Virus record (IMG/VR): IMGVR_UViG_3300046315_000035
DNA from: a virus
Taxonomy: Duplodnaviria > Heunggongvirae > Uroviricota > Caudoviricetes
Strand: one strand, 5' to 3'
Length of the DNA stretch: 64,000 nt
Part shown: piece after piece, positions 4,634-64,000 of the stretch
Position numbering within the stretch: position 1 is the stretch's first letter
Layout: each line of letters opens with the position of its first letter
Translations under genes and position numbers: made by a program
The notes under the pieces: model-generated
What the model saw: only the letters and a program-made list of their open reading frames with translations
Database searches by the model: none
Told to the model about the DNA's origin: nothing

Positions 4634-4636
4634 ACA

Positions 4637-4882
4637 ATGACAAATCAACAAACGGTTAAGGGTTACCAGTGGGGAGATGATTTATCTTATATTGGAGAAT
4701 ACGAGTTTCCTATTCCTCCTAATGGTGTTCCACATTTACCACCAAAAACAACATTAGTACCTCCACCTGAAGTTCCCGATGGTTACGAGGCAGCAATTGA
4801 TTTGGACTCTGGTAAATGGATAATCAGACCAGAAGATTTATCTTGGATGACCAATCCAAAAAATCTAGCACCGGGAGTTTGA
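4637..4882 (+). CDS. hypothetical Pro-rich protein
   Basis: ATG with AAAGG RBS; no recognisable domain. Confidence 0.4.
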   Translation: MTNQQTVKGYQWGDDLSYIGEYEFPIPPNGVPHLPPKTTLVPPPEVPDGYEAAIDLDSGKWIIRPEDLSWMTNPKNLAPGV

Positions 4883-4883
4883 T

Positions 4884-5189
4884 ATGGATATTAAAGCTAA
4901 ATTAAGTTGTCCTCTGGGCTCAAAATGTGAAGAAATTAAAGATAACACCATGTATCGTTGTGCTTGGTTTATCCAATTGGCGGGTACTAATCCAAACACA
5001 GGTGAATCTGTAGATGAGAGAGGTTGTGCAATGGCGTGGATTCCAATTCTTACGATAGAAAATTCAGCTCAACAACGTAGCACTGCATCTGCAATTGAAT
5101 CTTTTAGAAATGAAGTAGTTGCAACTTCTTCTGTACCAATTCTGTTTACAAATTATCCTAAAATAAATACACCAATTATTAATAACTAA
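4884..5189 (+). CDS. hypothetical protein
   Basis: ORF tightly packed between its neighbours. Confidence 0.4.
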   Translation: MDIKAKLSCPLGSKCEEIKDNTMYRCAWFIQLAGTNPNTGESVDERGCAMAWIPILTIENSAQQRSTASAIESFRNEVVATSSVPILFTNYPKINTPIINN

Positions 5190-37117: not shown

Positions 37118-37192
37118 TGGTGGGTCAGACTGGACTTGAACCAGCACTATCTCGATTATGAGTCGAGGGCTTCACCTTTAAGCTACTGACCC
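37118..37192 (-). tRNA. tRNA-Met (anticodon CAT; elongator or lysidine-Ile type)
   Basis: Cloverleaf with acceptor GGGTCAG/CTGACCC, anticodon arm CTCGA-CTCATAA-TCGAG, T-arm GCTGG-TTCAAGT-CCAGT and an encoded CCA. Position 1:72 is paired, so it is not an initiator. Confidence 0.7.
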
Positions 37193-39017: not shown

Positions 39018-39092
39018 TGGTACGGCGTAGTGGAATCGAACCACTATTGAATGCTTAGAAGGCACTTGCACTATCCGTTGTACTAACGCCGT
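39018..39092 (-). tRNA. tRNA-Arg (anticodon TCT)
   Basis: Perfect acceptor stem ACGGCGT/ACGCCGT, anticodon arm AGTGC-CTTCTAA-GCATT, T-arm AGTGG-TTCGATT-CCACT and an encoded CCA. Confidence 0.8.
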
Positions 39093-42046: not shown

Positions 42047-43780
42047 TTAATTGTTATTGTTCAACCAGTCATCCAAGTTGTGCAATGTGTGAGTGTCGTT
42101 ATCGTAGTAAACGTTACCAGCAGGTCCTGTCAATCCACAAATGCGATTCTTACTTAGTACAACCTTGGTAGTGTTTCGTTCAGTTGCATCTTCTGCGTAC
42201 TTATTTCTACTTAACAAAATGTTAGCTGAAGCTGACTTAATGATAGTAGAGCTACCTTGAATTTCTTCTTCACCGAATGTAGCACCTTGTGATGAATTCT
42301 GAGCACCAGAAGCTGACTTACGAACGTGATTAATAAAGATCAAAGTAACGTTATGACTCTTGATGATACCTTTGGCCCACTTCATGAATAACGCTTGGTC
42401 TTCATTGGATAGTCCATCTAAGATATCTTGCAAAGGATCAAGTACGATAATTCTGCAACCGCATGATACCACAAGCTCTTCTACTGTATCTTGAATCTCT
42501 TCGATTGTACCATCACGGTTATCGAGTAGATAGAAACGATGTTGACCATCTTCATTGTAGAAAAGCTCATTTGCCTTCTCACGTACTTTATCAGACTCCA
42601 ACAAGTCTTTCTTAGCTTCATCATCTTGAATCAACGAGATTTTACGACTAAGGTGTCTACCCAATAGTGTTTCACCATATTGACCAGAATCCAACTCCAT
42701 TGAAACAATACCAATTTTATGCGGTGAGTTAAAAATCCAGTGATAAACCATTTCGTTAACAAAGGATGTTTTACCAAGACCAGTACCTGCAGCAATGTTG
42801 ATGATGTGTCCCAAAGGTAAACCACCGACAAGCATTTCGTTGAGTGTATTCATGAAGTGCGGAAATGGTACTTTTGGTACAGCAGCTTGCGCTAGGATTT
42901 TATCGTACAGTTCACCACTACCCAATACACCAACAGGAGTATATCGTTTAGCTTCATAGAAGTTACGAATAAATTCATCTTCCTTACCTTCTTCAAGATA
43001 AGTATTAGGGTCTTTGTATCGCATGTGCATGATCTTGACCTTACCCTTTGGTAAAGCCTTGACTACGTTTTCAGTTGCTTCTTTACCAGCTTTATCATTG
43101 TCATAGCAAACAACAATTTGATCAAAGCTATCAAAGAAACGATACTGCGCTGCAATTTGTTTATGTGAGTTAGCACCTGTAGTTGGACTAACGACAGCCA
43201 TCTCATAATCACCACCACGAGATTTATTGTAGTCAGCAAACATCTGATATGCAGATAGTGCATCAAGTTCACCTTCGGTAATCAACACATACTTGCCACC
43301 ACGATTAAACTTAAACTGCATGAACAGTTCGCAGTCAGCACCAGTACGACCTTTAGAATAAAAGTTCTTTGGTACTTCACGGATTTTGTATCCTACGATT
43401 TGACCATCTTGTGTAGTTGGGTAGTATTGCTCTTCTACTTCTTCATTATCATCATAAGAATATCGAACTCCAAATGGTTTTGTAGTTTCATCTTTGAGTC
43501 CACGAAAACCTTTACCTGACACACCAGTTGCGAATTTAATATCTGAATTCTCATCGGGTGTCATAGCGGGTTTACTACTTGGTTTAACTTCCATACTTTT
43601 TTCTTCCTTTGATGTTGATGATCTTACTTTGGATTTCTTCTTGGAATTTTGTTCCTTGAATTCATCCGAAGGTACAGTATGCTCACAGACAAAGCAGTGC
43701 GTGGACTTATCCTCATACACTGCTCTGCCATCAGATGAACCACACTCGTCACAATTGATGTGTTTGATAAATGCTGCCAA
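42047..43780 (-). CDS. bifunctional primase-helicase (T7 gp4-like)
   Basis: N-terminal zinc ribbon CDECGSS...CFVCEH, a TOPRIM-like ITEGELDALS, and a Walker A AAGTGLGKTS in a DnaB-type helicase half. TTG start with an AAGGGG RBS. Confidence 0.8.
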   Translation of the reverse strand: MAAFIKHINCDECGSSDGRAVYEDKSTHCFVCEHTVPSDEFKEQNSKKKSKVRSSTSKEEKSMEVKPSSKPAMTPDENSDIKFATGVSGKGFRGLKDETTKPFGVRYSYDDNEEVEEQYYPTTQDGQIVGYKIREVPKNFYSKGRTGADCELFMQFKFNRGGKYVLITEGELDALSAYQMFADYNKSRGGDYEMAVVSPTTGANSHKQIAAQYRFFDSFDQIVVCYDNDKAGKEATENVVKALPKGKVKIMHMRYKDPNTYLEEGKEDEFIRNFYEAKRYTPVGVLGSGELYDKILAQAAVPKVPFPHFMNTLNEMLVGGLPLGHIINIAAGTGLGKTSFVNEMVYHWIFNSPHKIGIVSMELDSGQYGETLLGRHLSRKISLIQDDEAKKDLLESDKVREKANELFYNEDGQHRFYLLDNRDGTIEEIQDTVEELVVSCGCRIIVLDPLQDILDGLSNEDQALFMKWAKGIIKSHNVTLIFINHVRKSASGAQNSSQGATFGEEEIQGSSTIIKSASANILLSRNKYAEDATERNTTKVVLSKNRICGLTGPAGNVYYDNDTHTLHNLDDWLNNNN

Positions 43781-43789
43781 TTCTACCCC

Positions 43790-44836
43790 TTATTCATTTT
43801 TGAGCAACCAACTGTTACTCACACACTTGAATGATCGATCATGCACAGTGTTACTCTTAAACACAATACCTTCACGGTTACTGCCGTTGATTAAAGACTT
43901 ACCTTCTGCGTATTCCAAGATACTTTGAATCGTTTGTTCTTTAATCTCAGTGGCTTCTACAATGACAGGCACATGCTTTAACCCAAGCTTTTCACACGCT
44001 GCTTTAAGTTGTACAGGCAAGATGTATTGCCCTGTATGAGTATTGTACATGTCGTAAACGTAGAAGTCAAGCTGTACTTTGTACTGATTACCTTGAATAC
44101 CTTCACCGATCATTTCACCTTGAATTGCCATACCTAGCATAGAATTCCTACGCATGATATCTTCAATTTGAAACTTACGTGCTACTTTCCAGAATGAATT
44201 TGCTTCGTCTTCTTTCAAGTCTAAGTTACGTGAGCATACATGAAATACACCTTCGTCATCAAGATAGAATGTGCAAGATGAACCATCAAGTTTTTCTGTG
44301 ATTGACCACGTATCAAGCTGATATTGCTCAAAAGATCGTGTCAAGTTTTGGATACGCTCTTGATCAGTCTTTGGTACAAGCGCAGGGAAATTACCTCGTG
44401 CCATACCAGCGAGTTGAGCATTCATTGGGCGTTCCCATTTGAGAATACCCAAGTGTTCTGTCAGGTCTAAACCTTCACTGATAAGAATACCTGCACCTTT
44501 GATGGTATCTTCTGGAATAGGTAACAGTAGTCCTTGTGAGATTTGACCACGTAGTTTTACTGTACGTAGACGTTCACCTTTAACACCTTCAAATTCACGA
44601 GGTTCTTTACCTTTGGATAGGAATGGTGCAAGTTCTGTTGGAACCCAAGAATCAATTTCGAGGTACACGGCGAGTGAATCAACTGCAAATTCACCCTTCT
44701 TTACTACGACTTTCCAACCATCGACTACAGCGACTTCAATAGCGTCTGCACCTTCGATGGGTTCAATTGCTGCGATTTTACGAATAGTTGCTAATTTACG
44801 TTCTGTCATTTGTTTCTCCTTTTCTGTTTCCGTCAA
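43790..44836 (-). CDS. ATP-dependent ligase with N-terminal OB-like domain (RNA ligase-like, DraRnl type)
   Basis: Motif I EKLDGSS (KxDG). The N-terminus RKLATIRKI..IEPIEGADAIEVAVVDGWKVVVKKGEF is typical of OB-NTase RNA ligases. Confidence 0.5.
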   Translation of the reverse strand: MTETEKEKQMTERKLATIRKIAAIEPIEGADAIEVAVVDGWKVVVKKGEFAVDSLAVYLEIDSWVPTELAPFLSKGKEPREFEGVKGERLRTVKLRGQISQGLLLPIPEDTIKGAGILISEGLDLTEHLGILKWERPMNAQLAGMARGNFPALVPKTDQERIQNLTRSFEQYQLDTWSITEKLDGSSCTFYLDDEGVFHVCSRNLDLKEDEANSFWKVARKFQIEDIMRRNSMLGMAIQGEMIGEGIQGNQYKVQLDFYVYDMYNTHTGQYILPVQLKAACEKLGLKHVPVIVEATEIKEQTIQSILEYAEGKSLINGSNREGIVFKSNTVHDRSFKCVSNSWLLKNE

Positions 44837-50913: not shown

Positions 50914-51118
50914 ATGGTCCGGTACTGCGTTTTATATGATCAGCATGATCTTAACAACGTTGAATGTGTTTCCATTAAATTTACTATTCGGTTTCATCGG
51001 TGGATTTTTATGGTGTCTAGCTGGTTGGTTTAGCTATAAAGATAAAGCCTTGATTCTAGTCGAGGGTGCTTCTGCAGCTATTTACTTATTCGGTTTAATT
51101 AATTGGAGTTTAAAATGA
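50906..51118 (+). CDS. small membrane protein
   Basis: Two hydrophobic segments. Confidence 0.3.
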   Translation: MLRWSGTAFYMISMILTTLNVFPLNLLFGFIGGFLWCLAGWFSYKDKALILVEGASAAIYLFGLINWSLK

Positions 51119-51624
51119 ACGATCAAATTAAAGCTGGCGCTGATATCCATGCTGGTGACGGTGGTTACAGCGAAGGTACATTAGAAGGTTATGAACAATT
51201 TTCTAAAGCTCGAAATGCATCCAGAGGTAAACCTACTTTGTATTTAGTTAGAGGCTGTCCCGGTTCGGGTAAATCAACCTTTGCACAATGCCTACTGGAT
51301 GAATTTGTAGTACAACGCATCTATGAAGCTGATCAATACTTTGTACAAAATGGTGAATACCAATTTGATCCTACGCACCTTGAACAAGCGCACAATGACT
51401 GCAAGCGCAAAACTTGGCTTGCTCTCTACGAAGGCATGTCAGTAGCTGTATCAAATACATCTTGCGCTGAGTGGGAAGTCGAAACTTATGCTACAATTGC
51501 ACGAGAGACTGAAGCTAACTTTGTGAGTATCATTGTTGAGAATCGGCACGAAGGTAAGAACATTCACGGTTGCCCTGATGCTAAAGTCGAACAAATGAAA
51601 AGGAAATTTGATGTGCGACTATAA
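51115..51624 (+). CDS. polynucleotide 5'-kinase-like P-loop kinase (T4 Pnk kinase-domain type)
   Basis: Walker A LVRGCPGSGKSTFAQ closely matches the T4 Pnk kinase-domain P-loop GCPGSGKST. Confidence 0.55.
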   Translation: MNDQIKAGADIHAGDGGYSEGTLEGYEQFSKARNASRGKPTLYLVRGCPGSGKSTFAQCLLDEFVVQRIYEADQYFVQNGEYQFDPTHLEQAHNDCKRKTWLALYEGMSVAVSNTSCAEWEVETYATIARETEANFVSIIVENRHEGKNIHGCPDAKVEQMKRKFDVRL

Positions 51625-51636
51625 AGGAGTTATGAA

Positions 51637-52530
51637 ATGTTAAGTTATGATGAACAAATCAATCTAGTTAATCGTGCATTGGTTACTATGAAAACCGATG
51701 GCGAATACACTACGTTTAAATACGCTCGTAAAGCAATGTATGAATATCTTTGGGAAAAAGTACCTGCTTTGTGTGAATCTCGTGGACATGTATATTCTAA
51801 TATTACAAAAGAATTAGTACAAGCTGCTCCACGTAAGAGCTTCAATTATCTTGAACATTGTTATTGGAAAGATGTTCTTTTAGATACTCCAGTTGAAATG
51901 TACAAGAAAATCAATGGTTATATGGCCTGTGCTACATTACACAATGACAAACTTGTAGTTAGCACTACAGGTACTACAACAAGTGATTACGCTATGTGGG
52001 CTAAAGAGCTAATCCAACGTGATTACAAGTTGTTGGACGAAATGATTGATGACAAAGCTACGGTTCTTTTTGAAGTTGTAGTACCACAAGACCCTCATAT
52101 TGTACAAGAGCGCAAAGGTTTACATCTGCTTGGTATACGTGAGAAAGATACAGGAGATTTTTACCCTCTGAGTACACCTATAAGATGCACTTTAGAGCAA
52201 GCATTGGAAATTGCAAAGCATGATCATGGTGAAGGTTTTATGCTGTATCCTTTTCTAAATAAAGGTGAAAATATTGGTTACTATGATTACAACAATTGCT
52301 GTAAACTAAAGACTCCATACTACATCGGTAAGAAAAAGTTGATGCGTATGACAGCAAAGAATGTTGAAATCATGTATACTCAGACAGCTAGTGCATTTAA
52401 TTCTTTTCATTTACCAGAGATGTGGCATAATGCATCTAATTATATTGTGCAAAGCGTTCATAAAGATACATGGTTATCTATGAATGATCAACAACGCAGG
52501 GTAGTTCTTGAAGATTTTATGGGAGTTTAA
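51637..52530 (+). CDS. hypothetical protein, possible RNA ligase (KxNG motif)
   Basis: YKKINGYMA is a candidate nucleotidyltransferase motif I. The gene sits between the kinase and phosphoesterase genes. Confidence 0.3.
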   Translation: MLSYDEQINLVNRALVTMKTDGEYTTFKYARKAMYEYLWEKVPALCESRGHVYSNITKELVQAAPRKSFNYLEHCYWKDVLLDTPVEMYKKINGYMACATLHNDKLVVSTTGTTTSDYAMWAKELIQRDYKLLDEMIDDKATVLFEVVVPQDPHIVQERKGLHLLGIREKDTGDFYPLSTPIRCTLEQALEIAKHDHGEGFMLYPFLNKGENIGYYDYNNCCKLKTPYYIGKKKLMRMTAKNVEIMYTQTASAFNSFHLPEMWHNASNYIVQSVHKDTWLSMNDQQRRVVLEDFMGV

Positions 52531-53103
52531 ATGAAAATATTTACAAGTGATTTGCACTTTGGTCACAAACGAATTGTAGAATTTACAAATCGTGCTGTTG
52601 ATTGCGGTTCACAAGATAATCACACACGATGGTTAATCGACCTTTGGAACATTGAAGTATCTGCGGGTGATATTGTTTATCATCTAGGAGATTTCTCATT
52701 CTTTAAAAATTATAATGAAGTAGCTGATGTTGTATTACAACTCAAGGGTTCTAAGATTTTCATCAAGGGCAATCATGACAAGCGAGAGCATCTAGATCAA
52801 CTTGTAAAAGACCAACTGATCGCAGCATGGTATGATTACAAAGAGATTAAACTAGGTGATACACCTGTAGTATTATTTCACTTTCCTATTGCATCGTGGC
52901 ATCGGCAAGGTTATGGTGCATATCACTTACATGGTCATTGTCATGGAAACTTTAAAGATTACCGAGGTAAAATGCTTGACGTAGGTATTGATTCGGTATA
53001 TAATCTGTATGGTAAGCATGGATTTCTTGATGAACATCAGATCATTGAGTTCATGAAAGAAAAAGAACTGTACATTGCAGATCATCACAAAGAAAGGCTA
53101 TAA
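52531..53103 (+). CDS. metallophosphoesterase (calcineurin-like phosphatase)
   Basis: SDLHFGH, HLGDFSF and KGNHDK match the calcineurin-like phosphoesterase motifs. Confidence 0.65.
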   Translation: MKIFTSDLHFGHKRIVEFTNRAVDCGSQDNHTRWLIDLWNIEVSAGDIVYHLGDFSFFKNYNEVADVVLQLKGSKIFIKGNHDKREHLDQLVKDQLIAAWYDYKEIKLGDTPVVLFHFPIASWHRQGYGAYHLHGHCHGNFKDYRGKMLDVGIDSVYNLYGKHGFLDEHQIIEFMKEKELYIADHHKERL

Positions 53104-54727: not shown

Positions 54728-54756
54728 GCTAACTTGTATTGCAATAAGAATGTTTG

Positions 54757-54765
54757 TGGTATAAT
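54757..54765 (+). promoter_or_regulatory. extended -10 element TGGTATAAT
   Basis: Upstream of the HU-like gene. Confidence 0.4.
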
Positions 54766-54795
54766 TATAAACTTAACTTAAACAGAAAGGAATTT

Positions 54796-55125
54796 ATGGG
54801 TGATAAACAAAAACGTAAATCAAAAAGCTACAGACAACTGATTCAAATGGTAGCTAAGTCTTCAGGATATCATTTATATGAAGTAGAAGATATACTGCAG
54901 CATTTAGTAGGTAATATTCAAGTAGTACTTGCTGCTGATATGCCTGTAAAGATCAGTGGTCTTGGTACAATGCGTGTAAAAAAGATGAAAATTAAAGGCA
55001 TTCCCGGTAAACATGCAGAGAATACGTGCTACACTGCGTTCAGGTTATCAGTTACTTCTGATACCGGATTGCAAAATCACCTAAAGGAACATCATGTCGA
55101 ATCAACAGACCCCTTCAACTACTAA
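54796..55125 (+). CDS. HU/IHF-like histone-like DNA-binding protein
   Basis: Helix-helix region followed by VKISGLGTMRV (the GFGTF arm motif) and a basic beta-arm KGIPGKHAENT..AFR. ATG 54796 has an AAAGGAA RBS. Confidence 0.5.
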   Translation: MGDKQKRKSKSYRQLIQMVAKSSGYHLYEVEDILQHLVGNIQVVLAADMPVKISGLGTMRVKKMKIKGIPGKHAENTCYTAFRLSVTSDTGLQNHLKEHHVESTDPFNY

Positions 55126-57708: not shown

Positions 57709-58254
57709 ATGAAAGACGTAATCAAACGATGGTCAGCATACATTACAATCTTTATTGTTGCTATGTTTCTCACAGATCAATATCGAGAGTATCGTCAGCT
57801 ACAGGAGATTGAAGCTGTACGTCAAGATTTGATCAGGCAAGAGAAGGAAGCTGAAAAGAATTGCCTTAAGAATGCTTTGTGGTATGAAGCAGGTAATCAA
57901 TCGTTATATGGTATTGAAGCTGTAGCTACAGTGATTCATAACCGTAAAATGCATCCTGATTATCCTAGCACATATTGTGGTGTTATCAATCAACGCAGTC
58001 AATTTAGCTATACGCTGCTAGGGAAACCTGATGTTGAAATCATCAAAGCTAACTTCAGACCAATGGAAGTAAAAGCTTATGCTAAAGTTGAAGAAGTAGC
58101 TGAAAAAGTTATGTCAGAAGAGTTTAAACCTGTGCTAGATTCTTCAGTTCGTTTCTATACAACAAAGCAGATTAAAAACTACTGGACTAAGACCAAGAAA
58201 GTAGCTGCTAGAATTGGTGATCATGTGTTTTATAAAGATAAAGAAAAGAAATAA
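57709..58254 (+). CDS. SleB/CwlJ-like cell-wall hydrolase with N-terminal membrane anchor
   Basis: NALWYEAGNQSLYGIEAVATVIHNRK...YCGVINQRSQFSY matches the Hydrolase_2 (SleB) pattern. An N-terminal TM segment is present. Start taken at ATG 57709. Confidence 0.55.
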   Translation: MKDVIKRWSAYITIFIVAMFLTDQYREYRQLQEIEAVRQDLIRQEKEAEKNCLKNALWYEAGNQSLYGIEAVATVIHNRKMHPDYPSTYCGVINQRSQFSYTLLGKPDVEIIKANFRPMEVKAYAKVEEVAEKVMSEEFKPVLDSSVRFYTTKQIKNYWTKTKKVAARIGDHVFYKDKEKK

Positions 58255-58262
58255 CCTTTATT

Positions 58263-58298
58263 TCCCTGTGGGTTTACACCTGCAGGGATTTTTTGTTG
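58263..58298 (+). terminator. hairpin + T-tract
   Basis: Stem tccctg / caggga followed by ttttttgttg. Confidence 0.4.
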
Positions 58299-58320
58299 TA
58301 TAATCTAGGCTTCAACACAA
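58297..58320 (+). promoter_or_regulatory. promoter of conserved family: TATAAT-CTAGGCTTCAACA leader
   Basis: tgTATAATctaggcttcaacacaa; related to the copies at 60026 and 61893. Confidence 0.45.
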
Positions 58321-58330
58321 GGAGTTCCAC

Positions 58331-58723
58331 ATGAAAGTCGCTGTCTACTTTAACTTGCACAAGAAAACCTTCAGTGTCAAAGCTTTGGAAGGTGCGAACA
58401 AAGGTCGTGTGATTAATCATTCTGACAATGTTACACTTACTGATGCTATGTTTAAAGTATCAGAAGCTGGTCGCCAACGAGTTCTCAAAGAAAAGCGCAA
58501 GAACGTTCATGCTTATGTCATTGGTCAGTTGCAATCTTTAGATGCACTGCATGTAGTAGGAGAGAAGATCACGTACAATCCTTATTTGTACAATACATTC
58601 GTTACTTCGTTCAATAAAACTCCAGTAACTAATGCCAAAGAAGTATTTATGTACTGTTCTGAAAAAGATCAAATATTTTCGCACGATGAGCAAAAGTTTG
58701 CTATAATTCACTCCAGACGTTAA
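58331..58723 (+). CDS. hypothetical protein
   Basis: RBS AAGGAG. Confidence 0.4.
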   Translation: MKVAVYFNLHKKTFSVKALEGANKGRVINHSDNVTLTDAMFKVSEAGRQRVLKEKRKNVHAYVIGQLQSLDALHVVGEKITYNPYLYNTFVTSFNKTPVTNAKEVFMYCSEKDQIFSHDEQKFAIIHSRR

Positions 58724-58904
58724 CTACTCAAAGGATTTCAAACATGCGAAAATTCACCGATGTACTTGAAGAGTATCTTGATCTACGTGAACAATTAAAT
58801 AGTGATTACTATGATAACCGTTCGATTTGGTCCAGAAGTTATGCTCGGGAATCTATTGAAGAACTTAAGATTGAACTTGATGAATTTTTCAAAGGTGTTG
58901 AACA

Positions 58905-59213
58905 ATGAAGACATACAAATTCTACGCTGATCCCGGTCATGGTTGGCTTGCAGTTAAGATCACTGAGTTGATGGAACTTGGTATCGTCACACAGATTAGC
59001 AACTACAGTTACATGCGTGGTGCTACAGCATATCTTGAAGAAGATTGTGATGCTTCTTTGTTCTTTGAAGCTTATAAAGATAAGACCGGTTGCTATCCTG
59101 AACATACCTACAAACATACAAACAATCGTAGTCCTATTCGTAACTACGAGGGTTACAATCGAAATAAAGCTGTAGATTACGCTTTGAACGCATTGAAATC
59201 TGCTACAATCTAA
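58905..59213 (+). CDS. hypothetical protein
   Basis: 102 aa. Confidence 0.4.
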   Translation: MKTYKFYADPGHGWLAVKITELMELGIVTQISNYSYMRGATAYLEEDCDASLFFEAYKDKTGCYPEHTYKHTNNRSPIRNYEGYNRNKAVDYALNALKSATI

Positions 59214-59234
59214 CTTCAATAACAGGAGTATCCC

Positions 59235-59489
59235 ATGATGACATTTGAAGGTTTTAATACTGGTGAGTTCCAAGAGAAAGACTATGGTAAGTATTTCACT
59301 TATCGTAAGACCACAAACGTTTGGGCTATTGAACATGGTTTCATGCACGAAGTTGATGTACTAGATGGTGTACGTTTTGCACGAGTAATGAAGACTGTAG
59401 CTTATGTTTGCATTGATGAAGATGAATATGGTAAACCTGTGCATCAAATCTGGCAGATCAAGAATCACAAGTTGTACTTCAAAGAATAA
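59235..59489 (+). CDS. hypothetical protein
   Basis: 84 aa; RBS AGGAG. Confidence 0.4.
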   Translation: MMTFEGFNTGEFQEKDYGKYFTYRKTTNVWAIEHGFMHEVDVLDGVRFARVMKTVAYVCIDEDEYGKPVHQIWQIKNHKLYFKE

Positions 59490-59530
59490 CCCTTTGTTTT
59501 AGTCAACTTCTCGTTTGATCAAAAATTCTC

Positions 59531-59539
59531 TGCTATAAT
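59531..59539 (+). promoter_or_regulatory. extended -10 element TGCTATAAT
   Basis: Upstream of gene 59571. Confidence 0.4.
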
Positions 59540-59570
59540 TCATTCATCGACAACACAACTGGAGTTTTAT

Positions 59571-60014
59571 ATGAAGACAATCCAATCTTTTACTCGTGGT
59601 GCAACTGCAGGTGGTCTAGAGAAAAACGACTGCACAGTTCGTGCATTGGCAAATGCAGGTGGCATTGACTATTTTGATGCTCATAATCTTTTGAGTAAAC
59701 ACGGTCGTAAGAAGCACTGCGGTGCAAAGTTTGGTACAATGCACAAAGCTTATGCTGAAGCTGGTTTTGTAGTTGAATCTGTACATGGTACTACAGGTCA
59801 AGCTCGATTTGTAGCTCGTTTTACCAAGCGTGAAGCTAAAGAGGGTATTACACTGGGTAAGTTGCTACCTAAGCTTGCCTTTGGTGAGTACATCGTGAAC
59901 GTCACAGGTCATGCACTTGCTGTAGTCAATGGTAAGGTCATTGATACTTTTGATAATCCGGCAGGTAAGCGAGTTGTTACGGTGTTTAAAAAAGTTGAAA
60001 AGTTCGGTGAATAA
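59571..60014 (+). CDS. hypothetical protein
   Basis: 147 aa. Confidence 0.4.
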   Translation: MKTIQSFTRGATAGGLEKNDCTVRALANAGGIDYFDAHNLLSKHGRKKHCGAKFGTMHKAYAEAGFVVESVHGTTGQARFVARFTKREAKEGITLGKLLPKLAFGEYIVNVTGHALAVVNGKVIDTFDNPAGKRVVTVFKKVEKFGE

Positions 60015-60025
60015 TTAAAAATCTC

Positions 60026-60050
60026 TGGTATAATCTAATCTTCAACAAAC
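60026..60050 (+). promoter_or_regulatory. promoter of conserved family: TGGTATAAT-CTAATCTTCAACAA leader
   Basis: tggtataatctaatcttcaacaaac. Confidence 0.45.
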
Positions 60051-60065
60051 GTAAAGGAAATCACA

Positions 60066-60329
60066 ATGTCAAGCTCTAAAGTTTTCGCCAACATGATCGA
60101 CCAATCCAATGGTAAGATGGTTACTGTTACTTTCATCAAACAAGATGGTAGCACACGAATTCTCAATGACCGTCTTGGTGTTAAAAAGTATCTCAAAGGT
60201 GGCAAACTTAACGTTAACACCAACGAATACATCAGCATCTATGATGTGCAAAACAAAGGTTATCGCAGTGTTAACCGCAATACAATCGTAGCTTTGCGTA
60301 TGCAAGGTATTGAAGCTGTAGCTGTATAA
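60066..60329 (+). CDS. hypothetical protein
   Basis: 87 aa. Confidence 0.4.
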   Translation: MSSSKVFANMIDQSNGKMVTVTFIKQDGSTRILNDRLGVKKYLKGGKLNVNTNEYISIYDVQNKGYRSVNRNTIVALRMQGIEAVAV

Positions 60330-60339
60330 GGAGTAAAGC

Positions 60340-60678
60340 ATGAAAGAATATACAGTCGCTGAAATCTTGCATATCGCTGCAGACAAGTATCTTGCAGTAA
60401 AAGAGTCAGAATATTGGACTAGAGGTGGCAGCAAAGAAAAGTTCTCCTGCTGTGCAGTTGATGAAGCGGTATCTCGGCTTTATGGTTACTTTGATATGGA
60501 AATTTACGAAAGAGAAGACCTCATTAAACGCATTCATGAAGGTTTAAAAAACATGGGTTGTCCTACGGGTTCAGTAGATGCTTTTGATGATAATGGTGAA
60601 TTTATTGAAGAAAATCAACAAGCACGATATGCATGGTTGAAATTTGCTGCTACAATGGCAGAAGAGCAAGGTGTATGA
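60340..60678 (+). CDS. hypothetical protein
   Basis: 112 aa. Its RBS-start context ataaggagtaaagcatgaaag is duplicated at 61590. Confidence 0.4.
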   Translation: MKEYTVAEILHIAADKYLAVKESEYWTRGGSKEKFSCCAVDEAVSRLYGYFDMEIYEREDLIKRIHEGLKNMGCPTGSVDAFDDNGEFIEENQQARYAWLKFAATMAEEQGV

Positions 60679-60937
60679 GCAAGAAGAATAAAAAGATTAA
60701 GCTCAAACAAAGGAACTATCTCGTTGCTATTGTCATGCGTAAAGCTGTACAAAAGCACAAAGATCGTAAACGTGAAGCTAAAAACAAAGGATATGATGAA
60801 AAAAGTTAATCTATTTTTGATGGTATTGTTTGGTATCAATATTGGTATTGGTATTATGTCGGGTAATCTTGCAGCTATCTGTGGGTGGACTGCTGCATTG
60901 ATTGCACAGATTCAACTTTGCAATTTGGAGTGATAAT

Positions 60938-61147
60938 ATGAAAAAATATGGAGCAAAAGACGAACTAGACTATCTGCAATTGATTGAAGAAGTTGCACTA
61001 ATCGACAAAGCTGCAGCAGAATACATGCAAGGTCCAATGCGTGAAATTACTGGTTTTGCTGCATCAGATGATCTTTGGGATGTAATTGTTTGGGAACTTA
61101 CTCCACAAGGTCATGATTACTGGTATAATATTGCGAGTCAACTATGA
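60938..61147 (+). CDS. hypothetical protein
   Basis: ATG 60938. Short ORFs 60676-60810 and 60787-60933 (membrane peptide) lie upstream. Confidence 0.35.
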   Translation: MKKYGAKDELDYLQLIEEVALIDKAAAEYMQGPMREITGFAASDDLWDVIVWELTPQGHDYWYNIASQL

Positions 61148-61353
61148 ACAGAATTACATATAACAGTTTCAATGGTAAATTCTTCTATGAAATGACAAAA
61201 TCTGAGTTAGAATATTGCATGAAGATTATCAAAGATCAAATTGATGCTTATTCTCCAAGTATTTCAGGTATTTGTATTCCTGATCAGGAAAGACACCAAG
61301 AACATATAACTGCATGGCAAAACTGCAGTTATAATTTAAACAAGTTACTTTAA
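61144..61353 (+). CDS. hypothetical protein
   Basis: 69 aa. Confidence 0.35.
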   Translation: MNRITYNSFNGKFFYEMTKSELEYCMKIIKDQIDAYSPSISGICIPDQERHQEHITAWQNCSYNLNKLL

Positions 61354-61363
61354 GGAGAAAATC

Positions 61364-61597
61364 ATGGATGTTATTTTAGCTAAAGAAAACGCTGATGGTA
61401 GTGCAGTATTTACCTTTGATATGACAGCAGAAGAGATTCGTATGATGGTCCTTCTAGGGATTAAAACAGCCCTTCTAGCGGGTATTGAAGATGCAAAGCT
61501 CTGGAATGCTGATTCTGACCTTGCAGAACTACAGAATAAGAATCGCAATGGTTCTGATGTACCATACGATATTGCAACAGAAGAAGTCTACGCATAA
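61364..61597 (+). CDS. hypothetical protein
   Basis: 77 aa; RBS AGGAGAA. Confidence 0.4.
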   Translation: MDVILAKENADGSAVFTFDMTAEEIRMMVLLGIKTALLAGIEDAKLWNADSDLAELQNKNRNGSDVPYDIATEEVYA

Positions 61598-61607
61598 GGA
61601 GTAAAGC

Positions 61608-61895
61608 ATGAAAGCTTACAAACACCTCGTTAAGTATGCACTCGCTAAAGGTCACACTTGCAGCGTATGGGATGGTGAAGAGTGGCAGGTCAGTCACAGT
61701 ACAAAGTACCAAAAGATCGTTGAAGCGATTGAATCCGTAGAAGAAGCAAATGTAGTCATTCGACTTGCTACTGGTGGTGAACGCATTGGATGGGCACAAG
61801 TGATTCCTTACGGTCTAGAAGATGATGAAACAGTGGTGGACTATATTTGCAGTGAATTTATGGAAAATTGGTCGGAAGAGTACGAAAAACTGTGA
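61608..61895 (+). CDS. hypothetical protein
   Basis: 95 aa. Confidence 0.4.
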   Translation: MKAYKHLVKYALAKGHTCSVWDGEEWQVSHSTKYQKIVEAIESVEEANVVIRLATGGERIGWAQVIPYGLEDDETVVDYICSEFMENWSEEYEKL

Positions 61896-61917
61896 TACAA
61901 TCTAATCTTCAACAACC
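61893..61917 (+). promoter_or_regulatory. promoter of conserved family: TGATACAAT-CTAATCTTCAACAA leader
   Basis: tgatacaatctaatcttcaacaacc. Confidence 0.4.
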
Positions 61918-61927
61918 GGAGTAAATC

Positions 61928-62125
61928 ATGAAACTTTATCGAGCATGGGTCAATCAACCAAGTACTTTACAACCTTTACACAAATTGCATGGTAAATATT
62001 GCATTGTTCATGATACTGGTGAAAACTCAGTTACTCTTTATTTTACTGAAGGTGATTTGCATTCGACAACTGCTTTACGTCAGTGCATCTCAAGGGTTTA
62101 TCTTTCTGCAGCGGAGACAGTATGA
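61928..62125 (+). CDS. hypothetical protein
   Basis: 65 aa. Confidence 0.35.
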   Translation: MKLYRAWVNQPSTLQPLHKLHGKYCIVHDTGENSVTLYFTEGDLHSTTALRQCISRVYLSAAETV

Positions 62126-62379
62126 AGTGCAAGTTCAACGAAGGTTCTAACTTTGATCGTCAAGGTCAATGGATTATTGCAAAGTATCTTGACCTTGATA
62201 GTGCTTTTGTAACTGGTACTGTGCAAGAAACTCGTGTAAAATATGGTGGCACTGTGCAGCATACAATCATCAGCGATTCTCCTACATATGTCAACAATGA
62301 GTTGCGTAATGCAGGTAGTACATTCTTGGTGTATGAGCATTATGTAACAGAAGCTCAATTCTTGAAGGTGACACCATGA
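62122..62379 (+). CDS. hypothetical protein
   Basis: ATG 62122 with a GGAGA RBS; ATGA overlap with the upstream gene. Confidence 0.4.
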   Translation: MKCKFNEGSNFDRQGQWIIAKYLDLDSAFVTGTVQETRVKYGGTVQHTIISDSPTYVNNELRNAGSTFLVYEHYVTEAQFLKVTP

Positions 62380-62576
62380 TGGATCAATTCAACGACTACG
62401 TTAAGCTTGAAGCTATTTGTACATACCTGAAAAGCTTTGGATATAAAGCTATGGTTCACAATAACAGCATGTCTGTGCATGTAATGGATAAAGAAATAAT
62501 TCTTGTGTTTACTACATGGGAAGTTGCAAGAGAATTTATCAGGGTGCAAGCACAACGAGGCTTAATTAAGGTATAA
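62376..62576 (+). CDS. hypothetical protein
   Basis: 66 aa. Confidence 0.35.
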   Translation: MMDQFNDYVKLEAICTYLKSFGYKAMVHNNSMSVHVMDKEIILVFTTWEVAREFIRVQAQRGLIKV

Positions 62577-62607
62577 TCTAGTCATACCAACACAACAGGG
62601 GTTTCAA

Positions 62608-63030
62608 ATGGCGTATGTTTCACAAGAAGTTATCACCAAAGCTCGTGCTGCATTGAAATCACTCAATAAAGAATATGGTGTAAAGAGCACACTAAGTGGT
62701 AAAGGTGATAGTACTTTGTTCTTGACTATTGCAGAAGGCAGCATTGATTTCATCGGTAACTACTGCGAGAATGTAACTGCTAAACGCAGACAGCATGATA
62801 CACAGCAAGTTATTGCTTGGGTTACGAAAGAACAAAACATCAGTGTAAATCAGTATTATCTTGATAGTTCATTCTCAGGTATTGCATTGGAGTATTTGGA
62901 GAAAGCTAAAGCTATCATGCACGTTGATCATTTTGACCATTCAGACATTCAATCTGACTATTTTAATTGTGCTTACTATGTGAACATTAGTGTTGGTCGT
63001 TGGAATAAACCATATAAATTAGTAAAGTAA
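62608..63030 (+). CDS. hypothetical protein
   Basis: 140 aa; preceded by TATAAT at 62572. Confidence 0.4.
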   Translation: MAYVSQEVITKARAALKSLNKEYGVKSTLSGKGDSTLFLTIAEGSIDFIGNYCENVTAKRRQHDTQQVIAWVTKEQNISVNQYYLDSSFSGIALEYLEKAKAIMHVDHFDHSDIQSDYFNCAYYVNISVGRWNKPYKLVK

Positions 63031-63067
63031 ACTGACTAATATAGTCCTTGCATTATGCAAAGATAAA

Positions 63068-63143
63068 TGCTATAATTATAAAGCAATAGTTAAAGAAGTC
63101 ATGAGCTTTAACGACAAGAGCAGCTTTCCGTGGCTGCTTTTTG
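63068..63143 (+). promoter_or_regulatory. repeated cassette: extended -10 TGCTATAAT + hairpin/U-tract, copy B (upstream of GIY-YIG gene)
   Basis: tgctataattataaagcaatagtt at 63068, then agcagc / gctgct + ttttt at 63119-63143. Matches copy A at 54003-54077. Confidence 0.5.
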
Positions 63144-63173
63144 CTTTTATAACACGGATATTTATCGGAGAAT

Positions 63174-63650
63174 ATGATGCAAATTAAGAAGTGCAGTTGC
63201 TGCAGAATAGAAAAACCTTTTATAGAGTTTCATAAGAATAAATCAAATAAGTTTGGTTTGGCTAATTATTGTATTGAATGCAAAAAGTTAAGCAGAAAAA
63301 GCAAAACCAAGGTTAAAACAAAAAATCGTAAATTTGAAGAAACATATGATAAATGGATTGTATATGAATTTTATGATGACAATAACATTTGTATATACGT
63401 TGGACAATCTAAAGTATTTGCTAAAAGATTTATTCAACACCAATATGATAAAAGAATAACAGATAAAATACATAGAATAGTTTGTTATATTATGGATTCA
63501 TTTCCAGATATGGCATTTTTAGAGGCTCAGAAGATAATTGAAAAACAACCAAAGTATAACACAAGAATATCAGAATCTTGTTTATCAAAATTTGAGATTA
63601 AATATGTTTGTAAAATAGAATATAATATTGATGGACAGAAATTAAAATAA
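63174..63650 (+). CDS. GIY-YIG homing endonuclease with N-terminal zinc module
   Basis: N-terminal KKCSCCR..CIECKK, followed by WIVYEFYDDNNICIYVGQSKVFAKRFIQHQ (GIY..YVGQS..R..H pattern). Confidence 0.6.
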   Translation: MMQIKKCSCCRIEKPFIEFHKNKSNKFGLANYCIECKKLSRKSKTKVKTKNRKFEETYDKWIVYEFYDDNNICIYVGQSKVFAKRFIQHQYDKRITDKIHRIVCYIMDSFPDMAFLEAQKIIEKQPKYNTRISESCLSKFEIKYVCKIEYNIDGQKLK

Positions 63651-63660
63651 AAAACCTCGC

Positions 63661-63703
63661 ACCCCTTTCGGAACTAAAAATCCGTTAGGGGTTTATTTTT
63701 ATT
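63661..63703 (+). terminator. rho-independent terminator
   Basis: Stem acccct / aggggt enclosing an inner ttcgg/ccgtt stem, followed by tttatttttatt. Confidence 0.5.
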
Positions 63704-63777
63704 CAAAAATCTATATTCAGAATTTTCCCAAAAACCTACTTGGGGTTTCGCAAAATAAAAATGACAAAACTGCTTCG

Positions 63778-64000
63778 GCGTTGACTTATATAAGCGTTGA
63801 CTTATATAAGCGTTGACTTATATAAGCGTTGACTTATATAAGCGTTGACTTATATAAGCGTTGACTTATATAAGCGTTGACTTATATAAGCGTTGACTTA
63901 TATAAGCGTTGACTTATATAAGCGTTGACTTATATAAGCGTTGACTTATATAAGCGTTGACTTATATAAGCGTTGACTTATATAAGCGTTGACTTATATA
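63778..64000. repeat. tandem array of ~14 perfect 16-bp repeats GCGTTGACTTATATAA, truncated by the window end
   Basis: Read directly from the sequence: it has a perfect 16-bp period from 63778 to the window edge. Confidence 0.95.

What the first reader, a model, noticed from the sequence alone, without database searches (positions are those of the whole stretch)
63778..64000. Array of perfect 16-bp tandem repeats (GCGTTGACTTATATAA) running off the window edge
At least 14 perfect copies follow the terminator of the last gene. The unit contains TTGACT and TATATAA, but no register yields a -10 hexamer with the conserved final T, so a promoter array is unlikely. There are no spacers, so it is not CRISPR. 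Candidate roles are replication-origin iterons, a protein-titrating array, a packaging or terminal-repeat region, or an assembly artefact of a repeat.
Basis: seen in the sequence. Interest (0 to 1): 0.55.

Follow-up and report, generated by a model that had tools for sequence, protein, structure and literature searches.

The report
Repeat array at phage replication origin
At least 14 identical 16-base repeats in a freshwater phage genome lie next to a binding site for DnaA, the host protein that starts DNA replication, so the array is most likely an expanded part of the phage's replication origin and not a promoter array, CRISPR or pure assembly error.

Summary
Window 63778-64000 holds 13.9 perfect copies of GCGTTGACTTATATAA, and the motif occurs nowhere else in the window.

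The array is real. Four other assemblies end inside it from the left. Two contigs start inside it from the right, and one of these overlaps the window start over 1441 nt with no mismatch. Copy number is unresolved: at least 15.8 units.

The genome is a roughly 77.5 kb siphovirus related to Limnohabitans phage DC31. It carries a T7-type primase-helicase.

The only perfect DnaA box (TTATCCACA) in the genome lies 22 nt beyond the array. Two degenerate boxes follow at 11-bp spacing.

In 15 related genomes the same intergenic region reads: terminator, conserved motif, variable tandem arrays, DnaA boxes, GC-rich element. The arrays are either 20-mers with a CAGTCA core or 8- and 16-mers with an ATATAAGC core. 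There are up to five perfect DnaA boxes, three forward and two reverse, around an invariant palindrome TCTTATATAAGA. All 43 perfect boxes in 246 kb fall in these regions.

The window's unit contains the core of that palindrome (CTTATATAAG).

Best reading: an amplified AT-rich repeat element of a DnaA-box-type origin, acting in unwinding or as a protein-binding array. The function is inferred, not shown.

The parts
63778..64000 (.). Tandem array: 13.9 perfect copies of GCGTTGACTTATATAA. Each unit is the 10-bp palindrome CTTATATAAG plus the 6-bp spacer CGTTGA. The array continues beyond the window.
   Evidence: define the array. Its continuation and right end are seen in L031 and L050. After the last partial unit (...GCGTTGACTTATA) come 22 nt, then TTATCCACAgg TTTTGCACAgg TTATAAACA. 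The array is at least 253 nt in sample 3300048526.
63727..63761 (.). Conserved left-flank motif CCCAAAAACCTACTTGGGGTTTCGCAAAATAAAAA. It marks the orthologous start of the origin-like region in relatives.
   Evidence: Alignment with L001, DC31, L017, L009 and L043. Relatives carry 1-4 copies of this motif.
63661..63704 (+). Intrinsic terminator (stem-loop plus T-run) that closes the upstream operon.
   Evidence: RNA fold -16.9 kcal/mol, z -4.0. The same hairpin is conserved in relatives.
63174..63650 (+). Homing-endonuclease-like gene (zinc-finger N-terminus plus GIY-YIG domain). It is inserted between the conserved 140-aa gene and the origin-like region and is not part of the mechanism.
   Evidence: Pfam GIY-YIG 25.2 bits. 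PHROG endonuclease VII and endonuclease families. The gene is absent at this site in DC31, L001, L009 and L017. L011 has the same kind of gene here, and L014 an unidentified ORF.
62608..63030 (+). Conserved 140-aa gene of unknown function that lies immediately upstream of the origin-like region in all relatives. It was used as the synteny anchor.
   Evidence: phrog_10415, unknown function. 15 related loci were found with it. Its sequence does not track array type: it is 93% identical to the L009 and L010 proteins, which sit next to 20-mer arrays.
42047..43780 (-). T7 gp4-type primase-helicase (Toprim plus DnaB_C domains). It is inferred to be the enzyme loaded on the opened origin.
   Evidence: Pfam Toprim_2 4.7e-14 and DnaB_C 1.9e-13. 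Its role at this site is inference.
54754..55125 (+). Phage HU/IHF-family DNA-binding protein. It is a candidate architectural factor for the origin-like region (inferred).
   Evidence: Pfam PF00216, 29.2 bits against a cut-off of 22.4. No binding evidence.

Best explanation
The array is an amplified block of the AT-rich 'TATATAAG' repeat element of the phage's replication-origin region.

The phage is a roughly 77.5 kb DC31-like Limnohabitans siphovirus. Its origin-like region is built like a DnaA-box-type origin. It lies in a long non-coding stretch after a terminator. That stretch holds tandem repeats, then host DnaA boxes, and in relatives a GC-rich element, followed by the next operon's promoter.

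Proposed working, all inferred:
- Host DnaA binds the high-affinity box 22 nt from the array and the two weaker boxes phased 11 bp apart.
- An architectural protein such as the phage HU-like protein may help.
- DnaA together with negative supercoiling opens the neighbouring repeat DNA. Each unit offers an 8-bp all-A/T block, TTATATAA.
- Once the DNA is single-stranded, adjacent palindromes on either strand can pair into a row of 10-bp hairpins, which would keep the bubble open.
- The phage's T7-type primase-helicase then loads there.

Because the function depends on a short reiterated motif, replication slippage can change unit number and type freely. This would explain the perfect copies here and the different arrays at the same spot in relatives. 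Whether the reiterated palindrome is also the site of a sequence-specific protein is open.
For: SHOWN

1. Adjacency to a DnaA box.
- The right junction was recovered twice independently: L031 from SRR35434672 and L050 from JGI 3300048526.
- Both read: array, 22 nt, TTATCCACAgg, TTTTGCACAgg, TTATAAACA.
- L031 overlaps the window start over 1441 nt with 0 mismatches, so it is the same genotype.
- This is the only perfect TTATCCACA in the 77,543-nt composite genome. The window itself has none.

2. Orthology.
- The left flank aligns with relatives.
- In DC31 and 13 metagenomic relatives the same site carries tandem arrays.
- In 11 of them perfect DnaA boxes follow directly, typically three forward and two reverse around the invariant palindrome TCTTATATAAGA.
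- All 43 perfect boxes in 246 kb from 15 genomes lie in the 11.8 kb of these regions. None lies in the other 234.7 kb.

3. Shared motif.
- The window unit contains CTTATATAAG, the core of the palindrome at the centre of the relatives' box clusters.
- It shares the ATATAAGC core with the arrays of L001, L017, L013, L029, L043 and DC31.

4. Order and stability.
- The order in relatives is: 20-mers, ATATAAGC arrays, DnaA boxes.
- The ATATAAGC arrays are the least stable duplex DNA of their loci (z 2.1-3.1, top 0-3% of windows).
- The 20-mers have average stability.
- Recalled from memory, this is the iteron / AT-rich region / DnaA-box arrangement of the P1, F and pSC101 origins. The general make-up of origins is described in PMC10797057.

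5. Single-strand folding. The array folds into serial 10-bp hairpins as single-stranded DNA (-21.9 kcal/mol per 128 nt, z -5.2).

6. Replisome. The phage has its own gp4-type primase-helicase and a DNA polymerase but no recognisable initiator.
Against: - The window's own array is only modestly unstable: 68% A+T against 63% for the genome, z 1.4, top 9% of windows. The least stable DNA of the genome lies elsewhere, near composite position 69.2 kb.
- The unit lacks the ssDNA DnaA motifs TTATT and TTGT and has no DnaA-trio run.
- This phage retains only one perfect and two degenerate boxes. The central palindrome, the reverse boxes and the GC-rich element of relatives are deleted.
- Relatives L014 and L015 have no DnaA boxes at all, so the boxes are not indispensable for the family.
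- TTATATAAG repeats also occur at a second locus in DC31 and L013. This fits a sequence-specific binding protein better than a simple melting element.
- No replication data exist for any member. GC skew follows transcription and is uninformative.
- The orientation of the boxes relative to the array was not evaluated against experimentally defined origins.
Confidence: 0.55

Rival explanations
1. The array is a row of binding sites for a sequence-specific, probably dimeric, DNA-binding protein that recognises the palindrome CTTATATAAG. This could be a phage regulator, the phage HU-like protein or a host factor. The array would act in regulation or titration, for example controlling the downstream operon or sequestering a factor, with no direct role in origin opening.
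For: - Each unit carries a perfect 10-bp palindrome.
- The extended palindrome TCTTATATAAGA is invariant in all relatives that have box clusters, including the divergent L016.
- TTATATAAG repeats recur at second loci: DC31 L002 13590-13640, a 49-bp array at the L013 contig end, and one extra copy at composite position 69,200 against 0.26 expected.
- The window array is not especially easy to melt.
Against: - No candidate binder was identified. No ORF family within 4 kb either side co-varies with array type, and the adjacent 140-aa protein does not track it.
- The palindrome is not conserved in other arrays of the same class: L017 has ATATAAGCATATTCAT and L013 has ATATAAGC.
- A 16-bp period puts successive sites on opposite faces of the helix.
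- The tight, conserved association with DnaA boxes still points to replication.
Confidence: 0.2
2. The expansion itself has no function. It would be a hypervariable minisatellite produced by replication slippage in a tolerant non-coding, AT-rich spot that happens to lie in the origin/control region. Only one or two units, or none, would matter.
For: - The copies are 100% identical, which implies very recent amplification.
- Unit type, period (8, 16, about 20 or 49 bp) and copy number differ among close relatives at the same site.
- Several relatives have no ATATAAGC-type array (L009, L010, L028, L034).
- One sample shows a single-base variant unit.
Against: - Some tandem array is present at this position in all 15 genomes examined, which suggests that reiteration itself is maintained.
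- The motif core is conserved across arrays.
- Arrays are long in several lineages: there is a scaffold gap inside the L035 array, and contigs break at the array in many samples.
Confidence: 0.15
3. The DnaA-box region, with its repeats, is not an origin. It would be a DnaA-manipulating locus analogous to datA or DARS. As the phage genome multiplies, it would soak up or remodel host DnaA and shut down host initiation.
For: - Clusters of up to five perfect boxes, and nine tandem 11-bp boxes in L016, occur in a lytic phage that has its own helicase-primase and polymerase. Such a phage does not obviously need DnaA.
Against: - The window phage keeps only one perfect box, and L014 and L015 keep none. 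That would be a weak sink.
- This reading does not explain the arrays.
- No precedent for it in phages was found in the searchable literature.
Confidence: 0.08
4. The array is an assembly artefact, a tandem sigma-70 promoter array, or a packaging or terminal-repeat site.
For: - Every available short-read contig breaks inside the array, so the copy number may be misassembled.
- The unit contains TTGACT and TATAAG separated by 18 nt.
- The 77,862-nt JGI contig that carries identical proteins is probably the source contig. It may begin and end in the array and so mimic a terminal repeat (this is inference).
Against: - The array is seen from both flanks in several independent samples. A variant unit sets a minimum of 253 nt in one sample.
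- No promoter register has T at the last position of the -10 hexamer.
- TTGACT is absent from the sister arrays.
- The phage's real promoters match TATAAT (TTGCAT-N17-TATAAT at about 63050-63078).
- The terminase genes are 8-9 kb away, and the orthologous region is internal in the DC31 record.
Confidence: 0.05

Closest known systems
AT-rich repeat region (DNA-unwinding element) next to DnaA boxes in bacterial oriC and in theta-plasmid origins such as RK2 oriV, P1 oriR, F oriS and pSC101. Described in review PMC10797057; plasmid details are from memory.
   Same: - A non-coding region with high-affinity DnaA boxes directly beside short direct repeats of above-average A+T content.
- In relatives there are also iteron-like 20-mers on the far side and a GC-rich element, as in RK2 oriV.
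- The repeats differ in length and sequence between replicons.
   Different: - Known unwinding elements have 3-4 imperfect 13-mers, not 14 or more perfect contiguous 16-mers.
- The unit here is only 69% A+T.
- It contains a palindrome.
- It lacks the TTATT, TTGT and DnaA-trio motifs.
- No Rep initiator gene is present.
- The replisome is phage-encoded and T7-like.
- No function has been demonstrated.
Iterons of phage lambda ori and of iteron plasmids
   Same: Reiterated short sequences at an origin, of the kind that a dimeric or oligomeric protein could bind.
   Different: - Iterons are 17-22 bp, usually spaced about two helical turns apart, number 3-7, are imperfect, and accompany a cognate initiator gene (O, RepA, TrfA).
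- Here the period is 16 bp and the copies are perfect and numerous.
- No initiator was found and no gene co-varies with the array.
- The degenerate 20-mers of relatives fit the iteron picture better than this array does.
Origin-like region of Limnohabitans phage DC31 (PQ492658, record positions about 19,900-20,700)
   Same: - It is the orthologous locus.
- It has the same flanking motif.
- It carries 3.4 copies of TTATATAAGCGTTTAC, one mismatch from the window unit.
- It shares the palindrome CTTATATAAG, and DnaA boxes follow.
   Different: - DC31 also has about five 20-mers, five perfect DnaA boxes and the GC-rich element.
- The window phage has lost the 20-mers, four of the five perfect boxes and the GC-rich element, and has amplified the 16-mer at least four-fold.
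- The region is unannotated in the record and is not mentioned in the DC31 paper (PMC12195039).
Predicted phage origin with DnaA boxes and AT repeats, Pseudomonas phage vB_PseuGesM_254 (PMC11512268)
   Same: A computationally predicted origin in a lytic phage, combining DnaA boxes with AT-rich repeats.
   Different: - There is no sequence relationship.
- That prediction rests on Ori-Finder for a single genome.
- The case here rests on conservation across 15 genomes.
- That phage has no long perfect array.
datA / DARS DnaA-box clusters of E. coli
   Same: A compact cluster of DnaA boxes in mixed orientation outside oriC.
   Different: - Those are chromosomal regulators of the DnaA nucleotide state.
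- They have no tandem arrays.
- The comparison concerns the boxes, not the array.

Membership tests
DnaA-box-type replication origin (oriC / theta-plasmid type) | High-affinity DnaA boxes (TTATCCACA-type 9-mers), usually several, in the non-coding origin region | tested here: met
   One perfect box plus two boxes with 2 mismatches, phased 11 bp apart, lie 22 nt from the array. This is the only perfect box in 77.5 kb. Relatives have up to five perfect boxes. All 43 perfect boxes in 246 kb fall in the orthologous regions. In this particular genome the cluster is reduced.
DnaA-box-type replication origin (oriC / theta-plasmid type) | Adjacent AT-rich, helically unstable repeat region (DNA-unwinding element) | tested here: inconclusive
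   The array directly adjoins the boxes and is repetitive. Its nearest-neighbour stability is only z 1.4, in the top 9% of windows. Sister arrays of the same class in relatives are the least stable DNA of their loci (z 2.1-3.1). No superhelical-stress (SIDD) model was available.
DnaA-box-type replication origin (oriC / theta-plasmid type) | ssDNA DnaA-binding motifs in the unwinding element (DnaA-trio run, TTATT, TTGT), as listed in PMC10797057 | tested here: not met
   By direct reading, the unit GCGTTGACTTATATAA has neither TTATT nor TTGT on either strand and no run of 3-mer trios (motifs).
DnaA-box-type replication origin (oriC / theta-plasmid type) | Initiation of replication maps here, or the fragment confers autonomous replication | not testable with these tools
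   This needs marker-frequency analysis, 2D gels or plasmid assays. GC skew follows transcription only.
Iterons of Rep-dependent replicons | Direct repeats of about 17-22 bp, spaced in helical phase | tested here: not met
   The period is exactly 16 bp and the units are contiguous, which is about 1.5 helical turns. The 20-mers in relatives do fit this feature.
Iterons of Rep-dependent replicons | A cognate initiator (Rep, O or TrfA-type) gene, usually adjacent | tested here: inconclusive
   No initiator family was found among 39 ORFs scanned with Pfam or PHROGs. No ORF family within 4 kb either side co-varies with array class. Many small ORFs were not scanned.
CRISPR array | Repeats separated by unique spacers of similar length | tested here: not met
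   The units are contiguous with no spacers.
Sigma-70 promoter array | -35 and -10 hexamers at 16-18 bp spacing, with the conserved final T of the -10 | tested here: not met
   The scan finds no site inside the array. The best register is TTGACT-N18-TATAAG. TTGACT is absent from the homologous arrays of relatives.
Phage packaging site / terminal repeat | Located at the physical genome ends or at or next to the terminase small-subunit gene | tested here: not met
   The terminase large subunit and the preceding DUF5681-family gene, which may encode the small subunit (a guess from its position), start about 8-9 kb downstream of the array. The orthologous region is internal in the DC31 record. Physical ends cannot be mapped here.

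The most novel reading that the evidence does not exclude
A widespread family of lytic freshwater phages with T7-type replisomes recruits host DnaA at a plasmid-like origin. The repeat modules of this origin (20-mers, or palindromic 8-, 16- and 49-mers) are swapped and amplified on short evolutionary time scales.

In the window phage, a large amplification of the palindrome CTTATATAAG would functionally replace the lost half of the DnaA-box cluster. It could do so by forming a self-stabilising row of hairpins on which the phage helicase-primase loads. That would be an origin-opening route that needs little or no DnaA.
Probability: 0.12. Interest if true: 0.65.

Novelty: new variant of a known kind. 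Interest (0 to 1): 0.4.

Why it matters
- It locates the probable replication origin of DC31-like phages. Their host Limnohabitans makes up about 12% of freshwater bacterioplankton on average (PMC12195039). No origin has been described for these phages.
- It suggests that a lytic phage with its own helicase-primase and polymerase still engages the host initiator DnaA. This is directly testable with a cultured phage-host pair (DC31 and Limnohabitans sp. DCL3).
- The natural series of origins gives a ready-made comparative set for asking which origin elements are needed. The series includes five boxes, one box, no boxes, 20-mers and 8/16-mers.
- Practically, the array is a recurrent breakpoint of short-read assemblies of these phages. 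It can mimic a terminal repeat in completeness calls.

Tried and rejected
- Exact-pattern scans of metagenome contigs for two units and for the right junction found nothing. The viral-contig scan for the right junction also found nothing. No contig spanning the whole array could be obtained. The long (50-200 kb) contigs that carry the window's proteins were never returned by the look-up of encoding contigs.
- A scan of 185,579 bacterial and archaeal genomes for TCTTATATAAGA-N4-12-TGTGGATAA gave only three unrelated hits, none from Comamonadaceae. There is therefore no sign that the element was copied from a host oriC.
- BLAST of the array against 50,697 phage records matched only DC31.
- An Rfam search of 58000-64000 found no RNA family.
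- GC skew follows gene orientation only.
- A search for a gene co-varying with array class found none within 4 kb either side.
- A single-sequence AlphaFold model of the neighbouring 140-aa protein was unusable (pLDDT 36). It has no PDB relative by sequence. I chose not to spend a large homologue search on it, because its sequence does not track array type.
- Literature searches for DnaA boxes in virulent phages, or for DnaA titration by phages, found no relevant precedent.
- The promoter-array, CRISPR and packaging readings were rejected, as set out above.

Full report
OBSERVATION

Window 63778-64000 is a perfect tandem array of the 16-mer GCGTTGACTTATATAA. Tandem Repeats Finder gives 13.9 copies, 100% matches and score 446. 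I also read the sequence directly. A search allowing three mismatches finds 13 complete copies. All lie in the array and none elsewhere in the 64 kb. Shuffles give a mean of 0.85 matches, and none of 100 reaches 13.

The array follows the last gene (63174-63650). An intrinsic terminator lies at 63661-63704 (RNA fold -16.9 kcal/mol, z -4.0). About 72 nt of non-coding DNA separate the terminator from the array. The unit can be read as the 10-bp palindrome CTTATATAAG plus a 6-bp spacer, CGTTGA.

IS THE ARRAY REAL?

Exact-protein look-ups recovered independent assemblies of the same phage.

- Left side: contigs from JGI 3300048526 (L003), JGI 3300046386 (L004), and Logan SRR35434672 (L006) and SRR35434628 (L008) carry the same left junction. 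They all end inside the array after 222, 95, 30 and 17 nt.
- Right side: Logan contig SRR35434672_12092 (L031) and JGI contig Ga0456291_000609 (L050) both start inside the array and give the same right junction.
- L031 overlaps the first 1441 nt of the window with no mismatch, so it is the same genotype.
- Joining window and L031 gives a 77,543-nt circular composite, 37.1% G+C, plus an unknown number of extra units.
- In sample 3300048526 the left contig has a variant base at offset 110. The 143 perfect nt of the right contig lack it. The array there is therefore at least 253 nt, or 15.8 units.
- Identical proteins also occur on a 77,862-nt JGI contig that I could not retrieve. If that contig is one genome length, the array would be up to about 570 nt. 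This is speculation.

The array is therefore real and present in several samples. Its copy number is not resolved by any assembly I could see.

WHAT THE GENOME IS

The closest cultured relative is Limnohabitans phage DC31 (PQ492658, 76.2 kb). It is a lytic siphovirus of 37.6% G+C on a 59% G+C host (PMC12195039).

The window encodes:
- a major capsid protein, tail tube and tape measure;
- ribonucleotide reductase, exonucleases and ligases;
- a DNA polymerase;
- a T7 gp4-type primase-helicase.

No initiator protein was recognised among 39 ORFs scanned. An HU/IHF-family protein is encoded at 54754-55125.

WHAT LIES NEXT TO THE ARRAY

Beyond the last partial unit both right-flank contigs read as follows:
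- 22 nt (GCATAAAAACAACATCAAATAG);
- TTATCCACAgg, TTTTGCACAgg, TTATAAACA;
- a 27-nt A+T-rich stretch;
- a conserved repeated element and hairpin, with the downstream genes beyond them.

TTATCCACA is the consensus DnaA box. It is the only perfect copy in the whole composite genome. The window itself has none.

COMPARATIVE ANATOMY

I used the conserved 140-aa gene (window 62608-63030) as an anchor. With it, and with a downstream homing-endonuclease-like gene family, I collected the orthologous intergenic region from DC31 and 13 metagenomic relatives. The left flank aligns across them.

The layout is constant:
- a terminator;
- 1-4 copies of an AAAAACC-ACTTGGGTATTTGC-type motif;
- tandem arrays;
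- DnaA boxes;
- a GC-rich element (…GCGTGCGCGTGCG…);
- a conserved repeated element and hairpin, then the next genes.

The arrays fall into two classes.

Class A is a set of degenerate repeats of about 20 nt with a CCGTTCAGTCA-AAA core. It occurs in L009, L010, L011, L014, L015, L028, L029, L034, L035 and DC31.

Class B has an ATATAAGC core:

| Genome | Array |
|---|---|
| Window | 16-mer, 15.8 or more copies, perfect |
| L001 | two 16-mer types, 9.5 copies |
| L017 | ATATAAGCATATTCAT, 7.8 copies, perfect |
| L013 | ATATAAGC, 9.5 copies, perfect |
| DC31 | TTATATAAGCGTTTAC, 3.4 copies |
| L029 | short |
| L043 | degenerate |
| L035 | scaffold gap inside the array |

Where both classes occur, the order is class A, class B, then boxes.

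The box cluster is typically three forward and two reverse perfect boxes around an invariant palindrome, TCTTATATAAGA. L016 instead has nine tandem 11-bp boxes. L014 and L015 have none.

Across 246 kb from the 15 genomes, all 43 perfect boxes lie in the 11.8 kb of these regions. None lies in the remaining 234.7 kb. The genomes are related, so these are not 43 independent events.

Compared with its closest right-flank relative, L009, the window phage lacks the segment from the second box to the GC-rich element, and it has no class A repeats.

PHYSICAL PROPERTIES

Nearest-neighbour stability separates the two classes.
- Class B arrays of relatives are the least stable DNA of their loci (z 2.1-3.1, top 0-3% of windows).
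- Class A arrays are average (z about 0).
- The window's array is intermediate: 68% A+T against 63% for the genome, z 1.4, top 9%.
- The least stable DNA of this genome is a different intergenic region, near composite position 69.2 kb.

As single-stranded DNA the array folds into a row of 10-bp hairpins, because each palindrome pairs with the next across the 6-nt spacer (-21.9 kcal/mol per 128 nt, z -5.2). This property follows from the palindrome. Sister arrays such as those of L017 and L013 do not share it.

INTERPRETATION

The best-supported reading is that this long non-coding region is the phage's replication origin. It is of the DnaA-box type, and the array is an amplified block of its AT-rich repeat element.

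The arrangement of iteron-like repeats, an AT-rich repeat region and DnaA boxes, with a GC-rich element in relatives, recalls theta-plasmid origins and oriC. The general features are described in PMC10797057. The specific plasmid layouts are from my memory.

The proposed mechanism is inferred, not shown:
- Host DnaA binds the box or boxes.
- The adjacent repeat DNA opens. Hairpin formation and perhaps the phage HU-like protein would assist.
- The phage gp4-type primase-helicase loads on the opened DNA.

Slippage would explain the perfect copies and the rapid turnover of unit type and number.

Points against this reading:
- The array has only modest instability.
- It lacks the TTATT, TTGT and DnaA-trio motifs.
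- The box cluster in this phage is reduced, and L014 and L015 have no boxes.
- TTATATAAG repeats occur at second loci: DC31 L002 13590-13640, a 49-bp array at the end of the L013 contig, and one extra palindrome at composite position 69,200.
- That last point, together with the invariance of TCTTATATAAGA, keeps alive the rival that the palindrome is the site of a sequence-specific protein.
- No candidate binder emerged. No ORF family within 4 kb either side co-varies with array class. The neighbouring 140-aa protein is 93% identical between class B (window) and class A (L009, L010) genomes.

REJECTED READINGS

- Sigma-70 promoter array. No site passes the scan. TTGACT is not conserved in sister arrays. 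The phage's evident promoters match TATAAT.
- CRISPR. There are no spacers.
- Known RNA. Rfam finds nothing.
- Packaging or terminal repeat. The terminase genes are 8-9 kb away and the region is internal in DC31.
- Copy of a host oriC. A scan of 185,579 genomes gives only three unrelated hits.
- Pure artefact. The array is seen from both flanks in independent samples.

NOVELTY AND SCORE

The DC31 paper does not mention DnaA, and the region is unannotated in the DC31 record. Among 50,697 phage records only DC31 matches. Predicted phage origins that combine DnaA boxes with AT repeats do exist, for example PMC11512268. I found no literature on such origins in phages with T7-type replisomes.

I rate this a new variant of a known kind. 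The kind is an origin-type repeat element next to DnaA boxes. What is unusual is the long, perfect, palindromic 16-bp array, the reduced box cluster, and the exchangeable repeat modules across the family. Interest is moderate (0.4). The comparative picture is clean and testable with a cultured phage-host pair, but function is inferred and the general principle is established.

Noticed in passing
window 63174-63650 (also L011 about 4570-5050, L014 about 4570-5055, L010 and L013 about 4435-4690): The site between the conserved 140-aa gene and the origin-like region is a hot spot for insertions. The window and L011 carry a zinc-finger plus GIY-YIG homing-endonuclease-like gene. L014 carries a different, unidentified ORF there. 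L010 and L013 carry a small unrelated ORF. DC31, L001, L009 and L017 have nothing there.
   Followed up: partly
outside the window: L024 360-1020 (= L031 9805-9868; composite about 68,980-69,640): A second AT-rich repeat region in the same genome lies between divergent operons. It has 5.4 copies of the 12-mer TATGTTATAACC and one copy of the palindrome ACTTATATAAGT. It is the least stable duplex DNA of the whole genome. It could be a divergent promoter region or a second origin.
   Followed up: partly
L016 4634-4730: A divergent relative has nine tandem 11-bp units, GTTATCCACAG. This is an array of DnaA boxes in exact helical phase. Two more perfect boxes lie 400 bp downstream.
   Followed up: no
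L013 6480-6694 and L002 (DC31) 13590-13640: A second locus, about 1.5-3 kb downstream of the origin-like region, carries CTTATATAAG or TTATATAAG repeats. In L013 it is a 49-bp array that runs off the end of a 79,995-nt contig. In DC31 it is three 16-mer-like units. The window phage has no such repeats there.
   Followed up: partly
window 54754-55125 (+): The phage encodes an HU/IHF-family DNA-binding protein (PF00216, 29.2 bits). It is a possible architectural factor for the origin-like region.
   Followed up: no
window 5192-6679 (+): A tryptophan-halogenase-family, FAD-dependent gene (PF04820, E 8e-101) sits among the head-morphogenesis genes. This is an unusual auxiliary gene for a phage.
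   Followed up: no
window 43790-44836 (-), 51103-51624, 51637-52530, 52531-53103 (+): An RNA-repair-like gene set is present: two RNA-ligase-family proteins, a polynucleotide-kinase-like ATPase and a phosphoesterase. It resembles the T4 Pnk/Rnl tRNA-repair system that counters anticodon nucleases. Two tRNA genes (Met at 37118-37192, Arg at 39018-39092) lie on the minus strand.
   Followed up: no
outside the window: L031 14870-14740 and 14330-13940 (minus strand as read); L050 225-370 and 760-830: Downstream of the DnaA boxes a conserved element, GAGAAACAAAAGTTTACA / CTGAAAACAAAGGTTTACA, flanks a conserved hairpin (CGTTGTTGCAGAAAAACAACG) and a promoter-like TATATAAT. Further on, near-palindromes of the type ATCGGGCTAATATTGGCCGAT and GTCGGATAATATTGTCCGA precede each small gene. 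They look like operator sites.
   Followed up: no
L035 2420-2520; L046 position 1; ends of L003, L004, L006, L008, L031 and L050: Assemblies of this phage family repeatedly break, or leave scaffold gaps, at the origin-region arrays. These arrays can therefore mimic terminal repeats and affect completeness calls.
   Followed up: partly
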